The notes: generated by a model not told the origin, from the letters alone. DNA of 60,194 nt, filler included, from Porpidia crustulata (GCA_964255105.1; 8 parts of 8 records of this genome joined end to end with filler, not necessarily neighbours in it); one strand, 5' to 3'. Counted from the first letter of the whole stretch, positions 7,449 to 52,772 are shown. Made by a program: numbers and translations.

Positions 7449-7548
7449 NNNNNNNNNNNNNNNNNNNNNNNNNNNNNNNNNNNNNNNNNNNNTTAATTAA
7501 TTAANNNNNNNNNNNNNNNNNNNNNNNNNNNNNNNNNNNNNNNNNNNN
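7449..7548. other. Artificial contig linker
   Basis: 44N+TTAATTAATTAA+44N (stop codons in all six frames). Confidence 0.98.
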
Positions 7549-8231
7549 CCCCCCACCTCCCCAGCTCAACCACTCATCGCCTCATTAGCAAAAATTCATC
7601 GCTCCCAACCCCACATCAGGATCAGCGCGCCAACAACGCCCCAGGGATACAACCGTCGAAGGATCCGAGAGGATGGGAGCAGACGACGCGGTAGATATAG
7701 GGGCGGGTTGCCCAGAGCAGGCGTAACGGAAATCACAAGGCTGTGAACGAGCTGAGATGGTTTGGATCGAGAAATCGCATTCGTGGTTTACGTTGATGTG
7801 GATCTTTCATCCTCGCTTTTTGTTAATGGCGCTTCGTTGAGTAGATACTGATATCATTGAGCGCTGGTTGATAATTTCGGATTCTATTAGACTGGCTCTA
7901 CTTGAAGTTCTATTGCTTATTTAACGTTAATTGAATTGAGAATTTTTATCGCTTTAGATCTTTTTCTCGTACATTTTGTCCGCTGGGTACTTAATATTAC
8001 GGGTCAAAAGCGGCAATGGCCGAAGAGGAACAAAGAAAGATGTATTCTGAAAAGCGACGTAAACAATGCGTACAGGCCGGAATAAGGGAAGGGTCTCTGA
8101 CTGACTCCATAAATCAAGGAGATCAAGATGCAGCTCCAATATTTCCAGGTATCCTACTGTTGGAAGCCTCTATTGTTGATATTATTTTTGATGGCGATTC
8201 GATGTCGAAGCTAATTCGTAGCTTGAAGCGT

Positions 8232-8672
8232 CTAGTCTCTCTGTTCAATTCGCTGCGGCTTGAAAAAGAGACCGAGCCTGGAGATGAAGTAGCTCCCGAG
8301 GCCGTACACGGTTGCAGCAGCAAATACAATGATCTATCTTAGCATCAGTATTAGTACCATATCTTCAGCGTTCAAGGAAAATATAATAAGGATAGTCCAT
8401 GCACATGCTCACCCCGCCATGTACCCCTTTCTTCGCTCACCAAAGGCCGACTGAAAACTAGGATCAGTAGACCGATGACGAAAAGTAACATGCTAACATT
8501 AAGGAGCATCATCGGTGTCTGCCATATGAAGTGTTGCAATTGAACTTTCTGTGTAGCGCTCCGAATGCCCCAACCTCAAGGAGAAACTTAGCAGAGTACG
8601 CAGATCTGTAAGCCCATTAGGACGAGAACTTAGCCGCAGGAGGGCATTGTTCTGCTGCAGTGCAGTGATGAT
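8232..8672 (-). pseudogene. 5'-truncated, frameshifted fragment of an uncharacterised fungal membrane protein
   Basis: IITALQQNNALLRLSSRPNGLTDLRTLL, frameshift, QLQHFIWQTPMMLLNVSMLLFVIGLLILVFSRPL, probable intron, IIVFAAATVYGLGSYFISRLGLF; no upstream start (TAG shortly before). Confidence 0.5.
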
Positions 8673-8875
8673 CTCTCTCCTAGATAATGTGCCTCCTGCC
8701 TAACTTCAGTCAGATGACCACTAGGCAGAATGCTTTTGATCAAGCATCTAGCCACAGCCATCTCCTCCTAATCCCTATCCAGATTCGACAAGACCCCGCA
8801 GGGAAGGGTGGTAAGTGAGTCCCAATAAGGAAGACGCAGGATATGATAAACCCATGTAATGAGGCTCCAATGACT

Positions 8876-11452
8876 CTAGACTATGCTGATCATAAATCGA
8901 TCGAACCTTTTCGGAACGAAATCCAGATCCTTCCCACTCCAATTCGAGGGAACTATATCATCAAGCCCAATTGCATCTGCCTTTTGTTCTTCGTACGCAG
9001 CTTCCTCCAGATCCTGATTTCCTAAATCGCATAAGAAAAGCGCGACCATTTCTTCCTCCAACCTGCAGGTGCCACATCTCCTGAACTGGCCCCTTTCAGT
9101 TCCGGTCGGTTCCAACATTAGACCAACCATTTCGTCGATTTCTGGTGGCTCATCGCCATACCGCCTGTCAACAAGGTTGAAAGTAAGCAAAGGCATAAAA
9201 TATAATTCAGGTCGCTCGGAGATGTCGCGGTCGTCATCGAGTCGTCCTCTCGTCCCAAAAGGTTCCCTTGTTTTCCAAGTATTGAAAGATAGGAAAAACT
9301 CGCGGTCTATGAACGGGTTCTCTCGTTCTTCCGAGTGCGAGATGGTCTGTGCTTTTGGGTCGACCACAATTCGTAAGGGCTCGAGATCTGATTCATCGTT
9401 TGAGGCTCCCTTCCCTGGAACTATGGCTACTCTAAGTAATGGTGTCTCAATTGTCAATGCACTCGCTTTTACTGAATCAAAAGGGTCATTTTGGAAGATG
9501 GTGTCGATGGTCAGAACCGAGACTGGTGAGCGAGATTTTTGGGGTCGACTTTTCCGACTTATATGTCGCCAATTGAAGTTGGGTTCGATGGTACCGTCCA
9601 TTGACGCCCACGACCAAGTAGGTGCCCGATATTCTGGCGTTCTGTGTGCTGAAGAGGAAGCCGACCAGCTCAATTGGTCGATAATGTAAGATCCCCACAT
9701 ACCAGCGACGTATGTAGCGGCATTTGGATGTTTCTGGGACAGTACTCTCGCCAGGGCAGACACTGCTATGAGCTTATCCGAAAGGTGGCTCAGACCGCGC
9801 GTTAAATACTCGCCTACAATGGAACTCCAAATCTCAAGGAACCTTTGCTTGACGATTCCATCATTTGATCCAAGCGAGATTTTCGAAAGTTCGGTATCAT
9901 ACCGCGCTGGAACGCCTTTCGGGAAGCTTTCTGAAGCTTTTGTCTCATGGCATTCCCAGAATATTTGATCTCTAGCAAAATGCATAGTTCGGTTAGACAA
10001 GAACCATTCTTGATGAACCCAAGCGCGTTTGCTCAAAGGCGCCATTCTAATTTGATCAATCCATTCCGCGTCACTGTAGCAATGATATTTTCCGGCTGGG
10101 ATGAGCGGATGCCCCTCCCGGACATCAGCAACGCAGGTTTGGGTGGTCAATGGTCTTCTCCCTCGAAATAGACCCTGGCTTGAATTCGAGGAGGAGGTAG
10201 CCGCGATGTTGGCATAGGCATTAGAGTAAATCTGCCACATCTTTGCAGCTTCAGCCTTCCAGTCTTCTTTGTCGTCTTGGATAATGCAGAGAGAGTCAAT
10301 CCAGACATATCGGATTTCAAGAGAGCGAGAGACCAAGATCATGTCCGTGAAGGTTCGTGGTAGTTCGTTTAATGGAATCCGGTGCTTCAGAGCAGAGATA
10401 TTCTGCCGCGTAAGCTGCGAAGCCATTGGCACCTCTGAATTACCCCAACAATGACTGAGGGTCAGGTATCTCGGGAAAGATAGTAATTCTTTAGACTCTA
10501 TTAGATGCACAAAATCCGGGTCTTTGTTTGCTAGACTCACGTCAATGAGATGAGTCGGGAGGAATTGTATGTCCTGATCAGTATCTTGCGTGGGGTTTGT
10601 ACAATTATGTAACGTGTCACATATATGTGACCATTCACCTAGATAGTTGTGGTCGTTGGGTGAGGTCGTGGTATCCAGTGCAAGTTGAGGCTCTTCCAAA
10701 GACCTCGTCAACTGGCTTCTCGCTGGGCAGCGTCAGCAAAAACGCTCTGAGGGGACCCATCTCCACCCACTATCTATGGCCTCTATAGTGATCAAATTAC
10801 TAGTCGTGGTACGGGGAGCGAGTCCCTCCCCGCCTAAGCTCATCACGTAATACGAAAACCGCACCCCGTACACGTCCTTTGCTCGGGTAAATTCAACAAA
10901 GTCATAATGTCCCGGAATTAACTCGGTAGTAACAAAAGAGGTATCCAATGATCTATTCAGCAGGAAGCACATTGGACATTTTCTGGCAGATCGTTCGAGC
11001 ATTCGACCGTCCCAATGGCTGTAATAGAGTCCCTTCTCAAACCTTGTCATTGGGGAGACAAAGCTCCCATTGCCATCGAAAATTCGGCGGCATGGTTTGC
11101 AGAAATTTGTATTGAAATTTGACATTGTCAGGTCTCTTTTTGAACGAGAAGCGCTTGTTTCGTATTTTTTCTTTACCGTATGCGCTAATGCCTTCGCGAA
11201 TTGCTCTGAAAGGGGCGGGACCGCTGGACGAGGCCCATTCTTGTCGATACGGTCGTTTCTTGCCTGAAGTGCTAAGCCTTTCTTATTCTGAGTCTCCATG
11301 AAATCATACTTGTATTTGACGTTGGAATCAGTCCAGAAAGTATGTTGATAAAGCTCTTCTATCACCTCTTGCAACTGTGCCCGGGCATCTATCGGCTTGG
11401 TCGTTTCGTTGAGGTTTCCTGGCTTGTCTATCTGATCGATTTCGGGATCCAT
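8876..11452 (-). CDS. HET-domain (heterokaryon incompatibility) protein with intact motifs, 2 exons
   Basis: ORFs 10733-11452 and 8876-10711 are joined by a GTGGGT...GCTGAC...CAG intron; motifs LPTHLIDV, YLTLSHCWG, YVWIDSLCIIQDD-DW-EA-M-IYSNA, PLSKRAWVHQE, QIFWEC, YRAPTWSWAS. Confidence 0.93.
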
Positions 11453-11613
11453 ATTTCGTACTTAAGTCCACCGCAGATGGACCATATCAGATACTAGTCA
11501 TTTCACATACTCGAAAAAGCTAGTCTAACTGTCAATTCGACAATGATTTATGCTTCAAAGGTTCAAAAGAGCGCTCGGTAATGTTCGGCTGCCTGACTAA
11601 GATTTGTCGTCGG

Positions 11614-11621
11614 TGACGTCA
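11614..11621. promoter_or_regulatory. Palindromic CRE/ATF-type site TGACGTCA in the bidirectional HET promoter
   Basis: Perfect palindrome almost at the midpoint of the 342-bp intergenic region between the two divergent ATGs; TGTTTAC follows at 11623-11629. Confidence 0.35.
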
Positions 11622-11794
11622 TTGTTTACGTTCGGGGACTTTTGGCGCTTTTCTTGCATAACAAGGTATGATAATCAAGAGGGATTGATCATTTTTGAAA
11701 GAACAACGATACATCTATGAACTTTCTACCCTGAGATCCAAACGTTCGTTCGCATAACGTACTGAAGCACGCCTACTCTCGTCTTCTTTACAAG

Positions 11795-13740
11795 ATGCCC
11801 CCTAATCTCGATACTGCAGGTAAAATCAAACTCCTGGACTTATTGCCTGAAAGTGGCTTGGGTGGAGGCAGAAACTACAGGATCGAGGAATATTTATGGC
11901 AAAATTGCCCTGCATATAATGTAATAGAATATGTTTCTGCGCAGAGCCATCACTCTTCGTCGTCGATCATTATTGACGGCGAAGAAGTCGCTTTGGAGCC
12001 TACATTGGGACATGCTCTCTCACATCGGATGCATCACAATAGATCTCAGAAATTATGGATACAGTCGCTTTGTCTCGACTCTGTCCATGTATTGGATTCG
12101 AAGCAGCTTTCTCAGCTACAGAAACGGATCCGTACAAAGGCGGAAATGGTTATCATGTGGATCGGAAGAGATCATGAAGACGATGATATTCTAAGATATT
12201 ATCTTGGACCAGGAACCGACTCGTCGACCGAAAATGCCTTCACTACCTGCTAGAGCATAGCGGATGTCGAAGATCCAGAGCAAGACCTTCGTCAATACAT
12301 CAACGTGGAGTCGCCGCAAAGTCAGCGACCTATGCTGTGTTATTTGATGAATTTACTTTACAGATCTTGGTTCCGGAAGCTACCTGTTTTGAAGACCAAT
12401 TATCTGGACGAAATACCTTCGCTTATGGTCGGGTGTGGTACCAGGCTTACGAAGTGGGTAAGCATCAAAATCGCGGCAGAAAGAATAAGAATGATCAAGC
12501 CAATCCCGCATCTTCTGGTAGATTCGTTTCTAGAAGTCTTCGAGAGTAAGGGACATATTCGAGATTGGCTGCAAGCTCGCAAAAACTCTGGGTTCAGCAC
12601 AATCCAACTAATGTCTCAGGCGATGTGGCTCGTAGACAGGCTTCCCGAAGGACAAACTGACACCGACGCACGGAGAGATCATGTGACAGGCTTTTTGGGT
12701 ATGATAGGTGAATTATTTGGCTTGACATCCGATATACACGAGATAATTTCGCAATCAATAGAGGATTCAATTGACAAAGAAGACGCGCGAGAGCACTCTC
12801 CTTTTACGCTTGCAAGCCTGGAAAGCTCAAGCCCGCTACCAACTCCTCCCATTCGACAAGTATTGGATCCAGCTCCTGACCCAGAATATCAAGCTCCCTA
12901 CATTCATAAACCTGTGAAGATGGGTTTTCTTAACCTGCTCAAGCTTTTCCCGCAAGGCAATAGTGGCGAGACACTCGTTCAAGGAACCATAATATCTTTT
13001 CCTGTAGCTGATGTTCCACCCTTCTTCTTAGTCTGCAACGCCACATTAAAGAGCTACCGCAGGAACTCACTCATCCTCATAGATGGGCAATCTTTTCTCG
13101 TACCTGAAGCCCTCGAAGTATTCTTGCGTCGAGTCCGAGATTCAATTGACGAGCAACTATTCTTCATTTGGAGAATCTGCTGGTATCCTCAAGACGCACA
13201 TGTACTAGGAGATGAACGTGGCATAGCAGCTCTCATTACTTATACAAGCCAAGTCGCCATCATATCATCACTATGTGCGGGCTTTATTGATATGTACGAT
13301 ATTTTGACTGAGGCCGCTGAAGAGGTTGCTCACGAGCTAGAGGGAGTTTTGGATGGTGACGATTGGCTCTTGGATCTATTGGATGAGGCGCAGGTCAATG
13401 ATGCGCCAGCCACAGAACAGAGTGAAGAGGAAAAGAACAAAATGTATGTCCCAATTTTCTGGCGGTGTTATCTAAGCTTAATGGGGATTGTAGGGACCCG
13501 ATAACTTTTCAATATGCCAGGACCGAGACAAGTAATTTGAGCAACAATGAAGAGGGAAGTTTGGCTTCGAATATTGAAAAGCTCTCCTTGAACGACACGC
13601 TTGTGACTTACTTTTATGAGGTGAAAAGACCTACCAATACCACTTCGTCAATGGATGCAGGCGCCGATCCGAAGACGTGGTCCATTTCCAATGTGCTCTT
13701 ATCCGACCTCATCCACTTCAATTTGGCACCTCTCAATTAG
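11795..13740 (+). pseudogene. Protein with two tandem degenerate HET-like domains; one in-frame TAG at 12251-12253 (nonsense allele or recoded stop); 3' end uncertain
   Basis: ORFs 11795-12253 and 12305-13504 are in the same frame, separated only by TAG; domain 1 IKLLDLLP..PAYNVIEYV..IIIDGEEVALEPTLGHAL..KLWIQSLCLD..KAEMVIMWIG..RSWFRKL; domain 2 PYIHKP..LNLLKLFP..VPPFFLV..ILIDGQSFLVPEALEVFLRRVR..FFIWRICW; GTATGT..TAG intron near 13444-13492. Confidence 0.7.
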
Positions 13741-14994
13741 AGGGTGGAACGTGCTGATCGCAACAGGATTCGGCTTCGCCATGGATTGTGCCCCAGCGGA
13801 GGATATCATCAACGCACTTCGTCTACATTAAAGCGCCTAAGATACCTGTGATCACCTCTAGTTTCGGTGGAAACACTACCCCATATAAAGGCAGGGGCAA
13901 AGGCAAAGAGTGAAATCGAGATCACTCTAGAATTTTTGCCATCATTCCATGAAGACAGGCTTAAGTGATGCTGCCAGTGAAGCGATTTTACCGCCAGCGA
14001 AACGAGATCAGATATTCTAAACTCAAGATTCTGTTATTGTAACAGATACTTTCGACCTGGTTTTGACCCTGATGCCTCGCTAGTCAAATGTAAGATTCTC
14101 GAAGGTGGGTATAATTCGGGCACCTATGATATGCGTGTCAACAAAGCGTCTGCAACAGGGAACCGATCGCGCCAAAGTGCTTAGACCTTGCTGGCGCTGA
14201 AACGATCTTCTGCTATGCTTGGGCCCGGATTGTCTTATGCTCGATGGAGCTCGAATGATCCATACTTGAATACCTGCCCAGCGATGACTCTTGGCCTGAG
14301 ATTCCCGAATTGGAGTCATGAGGGCAATGAAGATTTGAAAGTCGTTGTTTCAGTCCGCACTCTTGGTGATCGATATGTTTGGGATTAAGGCGTGGCTAAA
14401 CCTTGGAGACTGCCTTCGGCTAAATCCGGTAGATCTCCTAATTCGAAGGCGAAGAAGAATTTTCTTTCACCTACGCACTTCTCATCTTTGCGCATGAGTC
14501 CATTTCCCCAAAGGATGGCCTTAGGAGTTGGATTGTTGATGACTCTGTATATTTGGTCCCTTATTGTTACCAGATCAGATCAGCCGTCAGACGAGGCATG
14601 ACCTTTGGACGCAAGCTGACTGTTAGATCCCTCACAAAGCCCCGAAACAGTACCAGTGCAATTCTATAGACCTCTGAGAATCGTTAATAGAGCCTTATAA
14701 TTAGGGTGATGCCCTTAAAGGACATGTTTTCCAAAATTTAGGTCGACATCTTAGCAGGCTGCTACATTGAGGCTATCAGGGTTGGCCGCCGACACAGCAG
14801 CCTATGACCTTCGAAACAGCTGAAAATAGCTCAAGCTTATCGATTATTCAATCTTTATATATTCTAGATCAAGAAGCGCTTAATCAGCGGCCGAAGGAAG
14901 GATTGTTGGAAGCGATTGTTAATACAGCAGTTTCTAACAATTGTTGAGATATATGATGGGCTGACTTAGGGTGAAAAGGGTTGTGGATTGAGTC

Positions 14995-15094
14995 NNNNNN
15001 NNNNNNNNNNNNNNNNNNNNNNNNNNNNNNNNNNNNNNTTAATTAATTAANNNNNNNNNNNNNNNNNNNNNNNNNNNNNNNNNNNNNNNNNNNN
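14995..15094. other. Artificial contig linker
   Basis: 44N+TTAATTAATTAA+44N. Confidence 0.98.
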
Positions 15095-16983: not shown

Positions 16984-18540
16984 TCAGAGCATGGCCCATT
17001 GATCCGTTTCTGCAGACTCGAGAACGCCATTGCCTGTTATTCTCCCGAGATTTGCAAGCTGAGACCTGAACCATAGCCGCTGCCGCACATCTATTCCTTC
17101 CAGGCTCGAAGCAATGCTCAACGGCCATACTACCAAAGAGGCTGAGTATGGCTTGATATCCTCCTTTGTGTTCAGCGTGACTGAAGCTTGGTGAACGGAT
17201 GAGCTGGGATTAGCTACCGTGAATCTTTCGATACAAAAAGGAATGGTAGATGCTAGGTCATCAGACATTGCCTTTAATTGAGTGATACATTCTGGTTGCT
17301 GCTCTTGGTACGTGAAGTCTGAATGCGAGCCGTGACAATTCAGTGCTAGAATCTTTAAACGAATACTGTTAATGAGCATTCTTGCGGCAAAATATTGGCT
17401 CCAGATCACGGCATCTTCAGGTCTTGAATAGCTGTAGACTATCATGGAATAGAAATTTCTCCTCTGCGAAGCATCAAGTTCGGGGAGAACATGTCGCCGG
17501 TAGGAACGTTTGCTGGGTATTAGGATTGCCCAATCTTGCAACGCCTTATTGAGTTCCCAAGCTTCAGTATTTAGATCCTCGGTCTTTATAGTCTGTAGAT
17601 AAGGTCTCTGCTGAATGTTGCTGAATGCATAATATAAATTGACGATTCGAACAAAAATGCGATCATACTTAAGCTCTAGGTCATGCTCGCCGAATCGAGT
17701 ACCATCTAGTATCCAGTCTGGCAACTGAAGATTCCTAAGCAGACATGTTCTGATCAATCCCCTTCTAATTTGCTTGATAATGAAAGTTGCAGAATTGTGA
17801 TTTAAGTTGTCATTCCAAATTTTCAAAATTGCCATGGCCCCATCATGATGCGACCAGCTCTGCAGCGATGTCAACGAGCGATTCGAACTGCAATTGCCTG
17901 GGCGGTGTGTTGCACCTTCGTACCGGCCCATGATAAGAACCGCAAGCAAGCAGGCGTCGATGCTGTATTCATCCGAAGCTAGGATTCCTACTTGTGGAAT
18001 CCGCTTTTGCGCAACCTGCAAAAGGCGGTGATACCGTGAAGAAGCCGCTGTAGCGGCTGACGGATGACATTGGGTTCGGGAGAAAATAATCAGGGCCATG
18101 GAAGAGAGTGCAAGATCCACCATGGGACATATCCTTCCAGAAATTCTCCATGCAGATACACATTCCGACAAGCCTCCCGATATACTATTTGGTACGTCTG
18201 ACGGTGTCTGCAAGTGGTATTGTCGGTAGTATGCAAGAGCGCATGTTTGCAGATCAAAATTTGGACGTAGCACAGTCAAGCTTGAGCGAGGTCCTCTCGG
18301 TCGCTTGGTTTCCCCGCTTGCATAACAATTCTCGAGGTGAATCGAAAAGGAAGCTTGTTTGGCAGTGCTCGCTCCGAGGCAGATTCGATGGGACTTTGTG
18401 CATCTCTGACAGGTCGGTTGGGCCTCATCGCACTAAAGCCGCGGGTCAGCTACTGCCTTCTTGAAAGAAGACTGTGCTACTTCGCTTGCCTTGATTCGAC
18501 GAATCTTGCAAGTCTGGCATGCTGCGCTCGGGAATGGCAT
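16984..18540 (-). CDS. Zn(II)2Cys6 transcription factor (2 exons; GC-AG intron 18433-18489)
   Basis: Spliced MPFPSAACQTCKIRRIK|CDEAQPTCQRCTKSHRICLG continues in frame into the 431-aa ORF with a fungal TF-type C-terminal region (HHDGAMAILK). Confidence 0.88.
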
Positions 18541-22536: not shown

Positions 22537-22636
22537 NNNNNNNNNNNNNNNNNNNNNNNNNNNNNNNNNNNNNNNNNNNNTTAATTAATTAANNNNNNNN
22601 NNNNNNNNNNNNNNNNNNNNNNNNNNNNNNNNNNNN
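22537..22636. other. Artificial contig linker
   Basis: 44N+TTAATTAATTAA+44N. Confidence 0.98.
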
Positions 22637-30077: not shown

Positions 30078-30177
30078 NNNNNNNNNNNNNNNNNNNNNNN
30101 NNNNNNNNNNNNNNNNNNNNNTTAATTAATTAANNNNNNNNNNNNNNNNNNNNNNNNNNNNNNNNNNNNNNNNNNNN
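30078..30177. other. Artificial contig linker
   Basis: 44N+TTAATTAATTAA+44N. Confidence 0.98.
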
Positions 30178-37618: not shown

Positions 37619-37718
37619 NNNNNNNNNNNNNNNNNNNNNNNNNNNNNNNNNNNNNNNNNNNNTTAATTAATTAANNNNNNNNNNNNNNNNNNNNNNNNNN
37701 NNNNNNNNNNNNNNNNNN
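37619..37718. other. Artificial contig linker
   Basis: 44N+TTAATTAATTAA+44N. Confidence 0.98.
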
Positions 37719-45148: not shown

Positions 45149-45248
45149 NNNNNNNNNNNNNNNNNNNNNNNNNNNNNNNNNNNNNNNNNNNNTTAATTAA
45201 TTAANNNNNNNNNNNNNNNNNNNNNNNNNNNNNNNNNNNNNNNNNNNN
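45149..45248. other. Artificial contig linker
   Basis: 44N+TTAATTAATTAA+44N. Confidence 0.98.
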
Positions 45249-52672: not shown

Positions 52673-52772
52673 NNNNNNNNNNNNNNNNNNNNNNNNNNNN
52701 NNNNNNNNNNNNNNNNTTAATTAATTAANNNNNNNNNNNNNNNNNNNNNNNNNNNNNNNNNNNNNNNNNNNN
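52673..52772. other. Artificial contig linker
   Basis: 44N+TTAATTAATTAA+44N. Confidence 0.98.

What the first reader, a model, noticed from the sequence alone, without database searches (positions are those of the whole stretch)
8876..13740. Head-to-head pair: intact HET-domain gene opposite a tandem degenerate-HET gene (candidate effector/decoy or toxin/antidote allorecognition module)
Seen: two genes are divergently transcribed with ATGs 342 bp apart inside one contig. The left protein keeps all HET motifs (YLTLSHCWG, WIDSLCIIQDD, RAWVHQE). The right protein has two HET-like copies that keep the scaffold pattern (IKLLDLLP/LNLLKLFP; IIIDGEEVAL..L..AL/ILIDGQSFLV..AL..FL) but have lost the conserved core (YxALSYxWG to YNVIEYVSA or FFLVCNATL; WIDAICINQ to WIQSLCLDS or FIWRICWYP; no WxxQE). 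Established: HET domains are cell-death effectors in fungal heterokaryon incompatibility and are proposed to be TIR-related; tightly linked gene pairs occur in allorecognition loci (het-c/pin-c, het-6/un-24) and head-to-head in plant sensor/executor NLR pairs. Inference: the degenerate tandem protein may be a co-expressed inactive partner that inhibits or senses for the intact HET. I do not recall this architecture being described.
Basis: partly seen in the sequence, partly recalled or inferred. Interest (0 to 1): 0.82.

Follow-up and report, generated by a model that had tools for sequence, protein, structure and literature searches.

The report
Conserved pseudo-HET partner beside HET gene
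On one contig of a lichen-type fungus, a normal cell-death (HET) gene lies head-to-head with a conserved relative that has swapped the usual HET signature motifs for its own and carries a premature stop here; the two genes also travel together in related fungi, but what the partner does is unproven.

Summary
On one 7,446-nt contig (window 7549-14994), two genes diverge from ATGs separated by 342 bp of spacer.

**Left gene (minus strand).** It is an intact canonical HET gene: Pfam HET 115.5 bits. Its only in-frame stop lies in a 48-nt canonical intron.

**Right gene (plus strand).** It is not decaying junk.
- It belongs to a conserved, apparently undescribed family: 14 full-length close homologues from lichen fungi at 42-79% identity, and relatives down to about 23%.
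- The family has a divergent HET domain, a helical middle, and a second module of about 125 residues.
- That module descends from the TIR-like N-terminal core of HET (hhalign E 1e-5; four controls E 0.2-0.69).
- The "lost" motifs are replaced by conserved, family-specific ones.
- The window's copy alone has a TAG where homologues have Q, R or E, and shows no other sign of decay.

**Linkage.** Left and right homologues share contigs in five other assemblies, with adjacent locus tags in Xanthocarpia ochracea. Orientation elsewhere is unknown, and several right homologues have no left orthologue among the hits listed.

**Verdict.** Partner or regulator of HET signalling is my best guess, and it is inferred. 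An obligate toxin/antidote pair is unlikely. This is a new variant of a known kind, of moderate interest.

The parts
7549..14994 (.). The single assembly contig that holds the pair. The rest of the window is other contigs joined by N/TTAATTAATTAA spacers.
   Evidence: N runs at 7449-7548 and 14995-15094, recurring about every 7,546 nt. Spacer read. The window's own proteins are listed on a 7,446-nt contig.
10771..11452 (-). Left gene exon 1: N-terminal Cys-rich region (CKPC...CPMC). No Pfam family.
   Evidence: ORF and ATG. No Pfam hit. The homologous N-terminal region is part of the annotated 799-aa Geoglossum umbratile protein P0031, which covers 95% of the query.
10723..10770 (-). Left gene putative intron: 48 nt, in frame, contains the TGA at 10733-10735.
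   Evidence: GTGGGT donor, CTGAC branch site and CAG acceptor read. The frame continues on both sides. Not confirmed by RNA.
8876..10722 (-). Left gene exon 2: canonical HET domain (10007-10468) followed by a C-terminal region with PTWSW.
   Evidence: Pfam PF06985, 115.5 bits, E 3.4e-33, profile 1-146 of 146. All signature residues are invariant in 16 homologues. Orthologues are 54-84% identical.
11453..11794 (.). 342-bp spacer between the two divergent start codons. Presumed shared promoter region.
   Evidence: Coordinates. Promoter function is inferred, not tested.
11795..13443 (+). Right gene exon 1 (549 codons plus 2 nt), interrupted by one in-frame TAG.
   Evidence: 14 full-length homologues at 42-79% identity align end to end.
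11816..12484 (+). Right protein residues ~8-230: divergent complete HET domain with conserved replacement motifs (CPAYxV.EY, LWIQSLCLD, WIGRDHEDDD, YRxWFRxLP.LKTNY).
   Evidence: Pfam HET 33.3 bits (cut-off 22.5), E 7.6e-8, residues 42-130 on profile 2-93. 13,998 library proteins at E<=0.001; in the top-150 listing most beyond the family's own members match profile positions ~5-230. Motif conservation.
12251..12253 (+). Premature TAG at codon 153, unique to this genome.
   Evidence: At this column, 10 of 14 homologues have Q, 3 have R and 1 has E. An independent Logan contig of run X1 (7,297 nt, depth 11.5) is identical across 8876-13740, though it may be the same sample.
12485..12799 (+). Right protein residues 231-335: helical middle region.
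   Evidence: Helices in the AF2 model. Lowest conservation of the regions, mean pairwise identity 0.45.
12911..13294 (+). Right protein residues 373-500: second module, a derivative of the TIR-like N-terminal core of HET.
   Evidence: hhalign against the N half gives E 1e-5 over 108 columns; four controls give E 0.2-0.69. Same strand/helix order as residues 10-122. Residues 365-549 fold alone at pLDDT 83.1, pTM 0.78. No direct Pfam hit. Linked to Pfam HET through the homologous module of P0191, 25.0 bits.
13444..13493 (+). Right gene putative intron (50 nt, GTATGT...TAG).
   Evidence: Read. The peptide after the junction is conserved in homologues P0006, P0012 and P0014. Not confirmed by RNA.
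13494..13740 (+). Right gene exon 2: conserved tail (..TYFY..KR.TNTTSSMDAGADP.TWSISN..) and stop.
   Evidence: ORF 13426-13740. The same tail is present in P0006, P0012 and P0014.

Best explanation
SHOWN.
- The locus holds two divergent genes of a lichen-type ascomycete. The named relatives are Lecanoromycetes.
- The left gene encodes an intact canonical HET-domain protein of about 842 aa after splicing: a Cys-rich N-terminus, the HET domain, and a PTWSW-type C-terminal region.
- The right gene belongs to an old, conserved family that I found described nowhere. Members are about 520-630 aa.
- That family has three parts: (a) a complete HET domain whose canonical blocks are replaced by conserved family-specific ones; (b) a helical middle; (c) a second ~125-residue module that descends from the TIR-like N-terminal core of HET.
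- The family is kept by selection, so it is a changed-function ('pseudo-HET') paralogue and not a decaying copy.
- In this genome alone the right gene has a single premature TAG at codon 153. That is one transition from the CAG (Gln) codon inferred from the homologues. Nothing else looks decayed, so the event is recent, or it is an unverified base.
- Left and right homologues sit on the same contig in at least five other assemblies.

INFERRED.
- The two genes are co-transcribed from the 342-bp spacer.
- The right protein has lost the canonical signature and acts as an adaptor or regulator. It would dock on HET domains through TIR-like surfaces, those of its neighbour included, and tune HET-dependent cell death.
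- I put this functional coupling at about 0.4.
- I put the anatomical and evolutionary part at about 0.9.
For: **Anatomy.** ORFs, introns and motifs are. Pfam HET scores 115.5 bits (full profile) on the left protein and 33.3 bits (partial, above the 22.5 cut-off) on the right N half.

**Family under selection.**
- The word-index search gave 19 hits, including the window's own ORF. 14 full-length ones at 42-79% identity align without breaks, with invariant residues in every region.
- The exhaustive search found 29 cluster representatives at E<=1e-30. Members down to 23% identity keep the same layout and the motif YRP(W/F)FRxLPLLRTNY in place of W..QE.
- The window differs at only 3 of 91 columns where all other sequences agree. 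The other 14 sequences range from 0 to 7.

**The second module is HET-derived.**
- hhalign gives E 1e-5 in register, while four controls give E 0.2-0.69.
- Secondary structure repeats in the same order.
- Related modules sit N-terminal to a HET region in 12 of the 147 library representatives that I scanned locally. A full canonical Pfam HET lies downstream in 8 of the 8 tested.
- The P0191 module itself scores 25.0 bits on Pfam HET positions 18-69.

**Linkage.**
- That is 5 of the 10 non-self left orthologues and 5 of the 18 non-self right hits.
- Xanthocarpia ochracea has consecutive locus tags, Q9171_001037 and Q9171_001038.
- The two HET domains belong to different subfamilies (hhalign E 0.007, 16% identity), so this is not a recent tandem duplicate.

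**Literature.** A heterotypic HET-HET adaptor role was proposed in PMC4986451 (passages read).
Against: - Gene orientation and spacing in the other assemblies are unknown. Only contig lengths and locus tags were available.
- Right homologues on long contigs have no left orthologue on a contig of the same length, nor any same-species name, among the 120 best left hits listed. These are the unnamed P0007 (1.56 Mb), Mycoblastus sanguinarius P0009 (138 kb), P0003 (55.8 kb) and Ikaeria P0012 (39.8 kb). The right family can therefore exist without this neighbour, or the databases are incomplete.
- Shared synteny among related lichen fungi could keep two neighbours together without any functional tie. 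I have no valid synteny control.
- This genome carries the right gene with a stop beside an intact left gene, so the partner is not indispensable here.
- There are no expression data.
- The biochemical mechanism of HET is unknown (passages in PMC10890737 and PMC12881547). 'Inactive' is therefore an inference from lost signature residues.
- Fold matches to TIR, SEFIR and deoxyribosyltransferase chains are weak: Z 4.5-5.4 for the N half and 2.1-3.0 for the C half.
Confidence: 0.55

Rival explanations
1. The two genes are functionally independent HET-family genes. Their adjacency is inherited microsynteny within a group of related lichen-forming fungi, helped by the known tendency of HET genes to cluster. 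The right protein has a job of its own that is unrelated to its neighbour.
For: - Right homologues occur without a listed left orthologue in several assemblies.
- The right family extends to ~23% identity, where no link to a left-type gene could be examined.
- HET genes are reported to be non-randomly distributed in genomes (passage in PMC10197012).
- The right gene is broken here while the left gene is intact.
Against: - Both genes are conserved together on 5 other contigs, although HET genes are described as poorly conserved between distant species (PMC10197012 passage).
- The arrangement is divergent with only 342 bp between the ATGs.
- Modules like the right C half are fused to canonical HET domains in other fungal proteins, which argues that such modules work together with HET domains.
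Confidence: 0.35
2. One reading: an obligate toxin/antidote or effector/decoy allorecognition module. The intact HET protein is the killer, and the pseudo-HET protein neutralises it or guards it.
For: - Tight divergent linkage, with co-location in other assemblies.
- The partner has lost the canonical signature but is conserved.
- Two-gene HET loci exist, for example Bh/Bp in Podospora anserina (PMC10890737, passages).
Against: - If the TAG is real, the 'antidote' is truncated at codon 153 while the 'toxin' keeps every invariant residue.
- The right family occurs without a listed left orthologue.
- Both genes look like conserved orthologues rather than highly divergent haplotypes. Allele data are absent, because only one run holds the sequence.
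- No NLR or decoy-type domain is present.
Confidence: 0.1
3. In this particular genome the right gene is a fresh pseudogene or null allele. The TAG is real and inactivating. The locus is therefore functionally a lone HET gene, whatever the family does elsewhere.
For: - The TAG sits inside the first domain, where 14 of 14 homologues have a sense residue.
- An independently assembled contig shows the same base at depth 11.5.
- The codon context is not one that I recall as prone to read-through (recalled, not tested).
Against: - There is only one defect in 1.9 kb and no excess of unusual substitutions: 3 of 91 columns, within the 0-7 range of the other sequences.
- The contig evidence may come from the same sample and cannot show minor variants.
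- A 390-aa ORF from the ATG at 12332 (it runs unspliced to 13504) would still encode the middle region and the second module.
Confidence: 0.55

Closest known systems
Canonical fungal HET-domain proteins (Pfam PF06985; e.g. HET-E/D/R, TOL, PIN-C, HET-6, Bh)
   Same: The left protein is an ordinary member, with a full-length Pfam match and all three signature blocks. The right N half is homologous, with a Pfam match above the cut-off.
   Different: The right family has replaced block 1 (Y.ALSY.WG becomes CPAY.V.EY) and block 3 (W..QE becomes WFRxLP.LKTNY), and has altered block 2. It also carries a second, partial HET-derived module that Pfam does not detect.
het-B locus of Podospora anserina (adjacent Bh HET/lectin gene and Bp PII-like gene; PMC10890737, passages read)
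   Same: A HET-domain gene is tightly linked to a partner gene, and the clustering is conserved across taxa even where no incompatibility is known.
   Different: Here the partner is itself a HET derivative, not a PII-like sensor. No polymorphism or incompatibility data exist for this locus, and orientation elsewhere is unknown.
Fungal proteins with a HET-N-like module fused upstream of a canonical HET domain (unnamed; P0163, P0183, P0185, P0186, P0187, P0191, P0286 and multi-copy P0167, P0170, P0178, P0189, P0269)
   Same: They carry the same kind of degenerate ~110-residue module (..V.N....YR....I.VDG..F.V..ALE.FLR..RD....LFIW.IC..), which matches the right family's C-half profile.
   Different: In those proteins the module lies N-terminal to an intact HET domain in one polypeptide. 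In the right family it lies C-terminal to a motif-altered HET domain, and the intact HET is encoded by the neighbouring gene.
TIR-domain adaptors, and paired head-to-head plant NLR sensor/executor genes (recalled from general knowledge; TIR-HET relation from PMC4986451 passages)
   Same: The concept is similar: a non-enzymatic paralogue assembling with a signalling-competent one through homotypic domain contacts, encoded by divergent neighbours.
   Different: There is no NB-ARC/NACHT or LRR/WD domain. Fold similarity to TIR is weak. No interaction has been shown.

Membership tests
HET domain (Pfam PF06985): left protein | Pfam profile match above the gathering score over the whole profile | tested here: met
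   115.5 bits against a 22.5 cut-off, E 3.4e-33, profile 1-146 of 146.
HET domain (Pfam PF06985): left protein | Three signature blocks (Y..LS..WG, WID..CI.Q, W..QE). The block definition is recalled from the literature. | tested here: met
   YLTLSHCWG, WIDSLCIIQDD and RAWVHQE are present and invariant in 16 aligned homologues.
HET domain (Pfam PF06985): right protein, N half | Pfam profile match above the gathering score | tested here: met
   33.3 bits against 22.5, E 7.6e-8, but only profile positions 2-93 of 146. 15 of 16 more distant family members tested also hit HET at E<=0.01 (14 at or above the 22.5-bit cut-off, P0165 at 20.5 bits, P0160 none); the 14 listed as family members (P0140-P0165) match it only in part, while P0158 has a full 1-146 match downstream.
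HET domain (Pfam PF06985): right protein, N half | Three signature blocks | tested here: not met
   Block 1 is YNVIEYVSA. Block 2 is WIQSLCLDS, which keeps W, I and C but not D, N and Q. Block 3 is SWFRKLPVLKT, which keeps W, F and R but lacks W..QE. The replacements are conserved across the family.
HET domain (Pfam PF06985): right protein, C half | Pfam profile match | tested here: not met
   No HET hit even at E<=10. Homology is indirect: hhalign against the N half at E 1e-5, and the homologous P0191 module scores 25.0 bits on HET positions 18-69.
TIR-like alpha/beta fold proposed for HET | Structural similarity of the model to TIR/SEFIR-type solved chains | tested here: inconclusive
   - N half: deoxyribosyltransferase 1f8x_A Z 5.4 (rmsd 4.0, 109 aligned), SEFIR 3vbc_A Z 4.8, TIR 7fd3_A Z 4.6.
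- C half alone: 1f8x_A Z 3.0, MyD88 TIR 7beq_A Z 2.6. By title, 13 of the 42 chains at Z>=2 are TIR, SEFIR or deoxyribosyltransferase.
- All are below the tool's reliability mark of Z 8. Foldseek found nothing at E<=0.001.
HET domain as cell-death inducer | Overexpression of the domain causes cell death | not testable with these tools
   Needs an expression experiment. Literature basis is in the PMC12881547 passages.
Allorecognition (het) locus | Divergent haplotypes under balancing selection; incompatibility between alleles or linked genes | not testable with these tools
   Only one public run holds the sequence. No allele series is available.
Toxin/antidote pair | The antidote is intact wherever the toxin is intact, with strict co-occurrence | tested here: inconclusive
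   Here the putative antidote has a premature TAG beside an intact left gene. Right homologues occur without listed left orthologues. However, the TAG is confirmed only in contigs that may come from the same sample, and the databases may be incomplete.
Paired NLR sensor/executor genes | Both partners carry a nucleotide-binding NLR core | tested here: not met
   Pfam finds only HET in both proteins, with no NACHT or NB-ARC.

The most novel reading that the evidence does not exclude
Right-family proteins are dedicated trans-acting pseudo-HET (pseudo-TIR-like) partners of canonical HET executioners. Their two HET-derived modules would mimic a HET-HET assembly interface and so either cap or nucleate oligomerisation of the neighbouring HET protein. 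That would make a two-gene cell-death switch, conserved in lichen-forming fungi and possibly used in contacts between thalli or with symbionts. The nonsense allele seen here would be a natural 'partner-off' variant. The [module]-[HET] fusions in other fungi would be the same switch built into a single polypeptide.
Probability: 0.2. Interest if true: 0.75.

Novelty: new variant of a known kind. Interest (0 to 1): 0.45.

Why it matters
HET is among the most abundant and variable domains in filamentous fungi. How it kills, and how it is controlled, is still unknown (passages in PMC10890737 and PMC12881547).

A conserved family that keeps the HET scaffold, has exchanged the signature residues, and carries an extra HET-core module would give two things:
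- a natural comparison set for working out which residues matter for HET activity;
- a candidate built-in regulator or adaptor of HET signalling.

If the linkage to canonical HET genes holds up in a proper synteny survey, it would add a HET/pseudo-HET pair to the short list of two-gene fungal cell-death modules. It would also offer a testable case of heterotypic HET-HET signalling, an idea proposed in 2014 (PMC4986451).

If the linkage does not hold up, the finding reduces to one more HET subfamily, plus a nonsense allele in one lichen metagenome.

Tried and rejected
1. **Whole-genome search.** No genome is held for this window.
2. **Synteny control that turned out invalid.** I searched the ORF at 16987-18432 as a 'flanking gene'. 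I then found that the window is a chain of separate contigs. That ORF is on another contig and says nothing about synteny.
3. **DNA context of relatives.** Two scans of metagenome contigs, with alignments A1 and A7, confirmed no relative (158 and 61 pattern matches, 0 confirmed). Orientation and neighbours of other family members therefore could not be read.
4. **The listing of cluster members.** Contig names and accession numbers were not obtained.
5. **Earlier findings of this scan.** Nothing came back by sequence or by place.
6. **Sequencing runs.** No RNA holder is listed. Contigs of run X1 are identical to the window and may be its source. Run X2 holds low-depth fragments of a diverged left orthologue and one 45-nt piece of the right gene. 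Run X3 holds one 38-nt piece. None of this shows expression, splice sites or arrangement.
7. **Complex prediction.** I then sent the natural intact pair P0023 (residues 1-375) with P0005. The verdict was 'no answer', score 0.02. This is no evidence for or against binding.
8. **Foldseek against the PDB.** No match at E<=0.001 for either the whole right model or the C-half model.
9. **Sequence search of solved structures.** Profiles A3 and A5 gave nothing meaningful; the best hit had E 0.27.
10. **C half against the left-type HET profile.** No alignment. The N half against the left-type HET gave only E 0.007.
11. **Intron over the right-gene TAG.** Rejected. No plausible donor/acceptor pair of adequate length is present, and homologues align through the position.
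12. **RIP as the cause of decay.** Rejected. The dinucleotide indices of both genes resemble those of the whole window.
13. **Neutral pseudogene decay of the family.** Rejected.
14. **Literature.** Searches for tandem or second HET domains, for head-to-head HET pairs, and for degenerate or inactive HET listed no paper describing this family or this pairing. In one search only 15 of 6,132 hits were listed, and none of those 15 held the specific phrases.
15. **ESM Atlas.** It only returned generic HET clusters.
16. **Pfam on small ORFs in the contig flanks.** No family.

Full report
**What the window is.** The 60-kb window is not one stretch of chromosome. N runs recur about every 7,546 nt. Each spacer reads N(44)-TTAATTAATTAA-N(44). 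The window is therefore a chain of separate ~7.4-kb assembly contigs. The finding lies wholly inside the contig at 7549-14994 (7,446 nt), which matches the contig length that the protein database records for the window's own ORFs. Only about 1.3 kb of true flank exists on each side, and it holds no ORF with a Pfam family. The housekeeping genes elsewhere in the window are not neighbours of the pair.

**Observation.** The start codons are at 11452 (minus strand) and 11795 (plus strand), which leaves a 342-bp spacer.

The left frame contains one stop, TGA at 10733-10735. It sits in a 48-nt segment with a GTGGGT donor, a CTGAC branch site and a CAG acceptor, and the frame is preserved across it. 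I read this as an intron, unconfirmed by RNA.

The right frame contains a TAG at 12251-12253. A 50-nt GTATGT...TAG intron at 13444-13493 joins the main ORF to the 13494-13740 exon. The peptide of that exon (..TYFY..KR.TNTTSSMDAGADP.TWSISN..) recurs in homologues P0006, P0012 and P0014.

**Left gene.**
- Pfam HET matches the whole profile (115.5 bits, E 3.4e-33).
- Orthologues at 54-84% identity exist (P0021-P0030), and 1,229 proteins score E<=1e-10.
- The annotated 799-aa Geoglossum umbratile protein P0031 covers 95% of the query, including the N-terminal CKPC...CPLC region. Exon 1 therefore belongs to the gene.
- All signature residues are invariant in a 16-sequence alignment.
- The gene looks intact.

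**Right gene: a conserved family, not decay.**
- The N-terminal 152-aa piece matches Pfam HET above the cut-off (33.3 against 22.5 bits), but only on profile positions 2-93. The rest of the protein gives no Pfam hit.
- A word-index search found 19 proteins, including the window's own ORF. Named ones come from Xanthoria aureola, Xanthocarpia ochracea, Ikaeria aurantiellina and Mycoblastus sanguinarius. Of these I looked up two: Xanthocarpia ochracea (Teloschistales) and Mycoblastus sanguinarius (Lecanorales) are both Lecanoromycetes.
- Fourteen full-length homologues at 42-79% identity align end to end, with invariant residues in every region.
- The 'lost' motifs are conserved replacements: CPAY.V.EY, LWIQSLCLD, WIGRDHEDDD...YLGPG..SST..AF, and YRPWFRELP.LKTNY. 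The second half carries LLKLFP, NATLK.YRRNS.ILVDGQSFLVPEALE.FLRRVRD, LFIW.IC and DWLLDLLDE.
- An exhaustive profile search found 13,998 proteins at E<=0.001. In the top-150 listing most beyond the family's own members are ordinary HET proteins matching profile positions ~5-230. 29 cluster representatives scored E<=1e-30.
- Members at 23-33% identity keep the same two-module layout, and many end at WDDWLLELND. One of them, P0142, still has a canonical IWIDRICINQDD.
- The family is therefore old and kept by selection.

**The stop codon.**
- At the TAG column, 10 of 14 homologues have Q, 3 have R and 1 has E. TAG is one transition from CAG; this is an inference.
- The window differs from an otherwise unanimous column at 3 of 91 such columns, within the 0-7 range of the other 14 sequences. 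There are no frameshifts.
- A Logan contig of run X1 (7,297 nt, depth 11.5) is identical over 8876-13740, but it may be the same sample.
- I read this as a recent nonsense allele. An uncorrected base, or a variant within the thallus, cannot be excluded.

**The second half.**
- Controls: reversed-sequence comparisons give E 0.58 and 0.69, and the middle region gives E 0.2 and 0.23.
- The AF2 model of the whole protein is of middling quality (pLDDT 61.9). It shows the same order of elements, five strands, helix, strand, helices, strand, at residues 10-122 and 378-499.
- Residues 365-549 modelled alone with 34 sequences give pLDDT 83.1 and pTM 0.78.
- Structure searches are weak but consistent. 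The top hit for both halves is nucleoside 2-deoxyribosyltransferase 1f8x_A (Z 5.4 and Z 3.0). SEFIR and TIR chains follow: 3vbc_A at 4.8 and 2.7, 7fd3_A at 4.6 and 2.3, and MyD88 7beq_A at 2.6. All are below the reliability mark, and Foldseek found nothing.
- Independent sequence support comes from other fungal proteins. Among 147 library representatives scanned locally, 19 match the C-half part of the profile. Twelve of those have the module upstream of a HET region in the same protein.
- Pfam finds a full canonical HET downstream in 8 of the 8 tested.
- For the N-terminal modules scanned alone, P0191 scores 25.0 bits on HET positions 18-69, P0185 scores 17.1 bits (below the cut-off), and P0163 and the window's own C half score nothing.
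- The module thus corresponds to the ~100-residue TIR-like core that PMC4986451 describes for HET (passages).

**Linkage.**
  - P0005 / P0023: 21,132 nt
  - P0008 / P0027: 36,508 nt
  - P0011 / P0029: 7,386 nt
  - P0016 / P0028: 6,414 nt
  - P0014 / P0026: 194,090 nt
- That is 5 of the 10 non-self left orthologues and 5 of the 18 non-self right hits.
- In Xanthocarpia ochracea the locus tags are consecutive: Q9171_001037 (left) and Q9171_001038 (right).
- On the 6.4-kb and 7.4-kb contigs the two genes must lie within a few kb of each other.
- Against this, right homologues on a 1.56-Mb contig (P0007), a 138-kb contig (Mycoblastus), a 55.8-kb contig (P0003) and a 39.8-kb contig (Ikaeria) have no counterpart among the 120 best left hits. 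Orientation is unknown everywhere except here.
- The two HET domains are of different subfamilies (E 0.007, 16% identity), so this is not a recent tandem duplicate.
- My intended synteny control is void, because that ORF is on another contig.

**Interpretation.**
- Shown: an intact HET gene lies head-to-head with a member of a conserved, motif-altered, double-module HET-derived family. That member carries a private nonsense codon. The two genes are co-located in several related fungi.
- Inferred: they share regulation through the 342-bp spacer, and the right protein acts as an adaptor or regulator through HET/TIR-like contacts.
- The cis fusions of similar modules with intact HET domains make a working relationship between such modules and HET domains plausible.
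- An obligate toxin/antidote relation is unlikely. The partner is truncated here while the left gene is intact, and the right family occurs without a listed left orthologue.
- Allorecognition cannot be judged, because no allele series is available.

**Literature.** I read passages, not whole texts, of four papers:
- PMC12881547 and PMC10197012: HET is TIR-related, its mechanism and structure are undetermined, and most HET genes are not het loci.
- PMC10890737: the Bh/Bp pair, with clustering conserved in 28 of 31 taxa.
- PMC4986451: the HET-TIR similarity and the adaptor idea.

Searches for tandem or second HET domains, for head-to-head HET pairs, and for degenerate or inactive HET listed nothing that describes this family or this pairing. 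Supplements were not consulted.

**Verdict.** The anatomy is confirmed. 'Degenerate' should be read as 'conserved but non-canonical'. The pair is a reasonable candidate for a HET/pseudo-HET module, but its function is untested. I rate it a new variant of a known kind, with interest 0.45.

Noticed in passing
window 7449-7548, 14995-15094, 22537-22636, 30078-30177, 37619-37718, 45149-45248, 52673-52772: The window is a concatenation of ~7.4-kb contigs joined by N(44)-TTAATTAATTAA-N(44) spacers. Genes in different segments are not genomic neighbours, and any synteny argument across a spacer is void.
   Followed up: yes
window 12160-12330 (right protein residues ~122-180): A strongly conserved acidic and Gly-rich stretch (WIGRDHEDDDIL..YLGPG..SST..AF..CQS) has invariant residues even in 23%-identical relatives. 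It models with pLDDT below 50. The premature TAG lies inside it. It may be a binding loop specific to this family.
   Followed up: partly
proteins P0163, P0183, P0185, P0186, P0187, P0189, P0191, P0286, P0167, P0170, P0178, P0269 (library representatives, no genomic context): These fungal HET proteins carry one or two degenerate HET-N-like modules upstream of a canonical HET domain. Pfam annotates only the canonical domain. This tandem architecture seems more widespread than the lichen family, and I found no description of it.
   Followed up: partly
window 10771-11452 (-): The left protein's N-terminal ~227 residues hold a CKPC...(~50 aa)...CPMC pattern that is shared with the Geoglossum homologue P0031. 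It matches no Pfam family and may be a small zinc-binding domain.
   Followed up: no
window 16987-18432 (-), a different contig: This 482-aa ORF starts with a Zn2Cys6-like Cys pattern. Its best named hit is Claussenomyces sp. (Leotiomycetes, 64% identity), with lichen-fungus proteins (Trapelia, Mycoblastus) at similar identity over part of the query. It could come from another fungus in the same sample, or be a widely conserved regulator.
   Followed up: no
window 13494-13740 (+): The right gene's second exon encodes a tail (TNTTSSMDAGADP.TWSISN) conserved in the Teloschistaceae-type homologues P0006, P0012 and P0014. More distant family members lack it and end at WDDWLLELND.
   Followed up: partly
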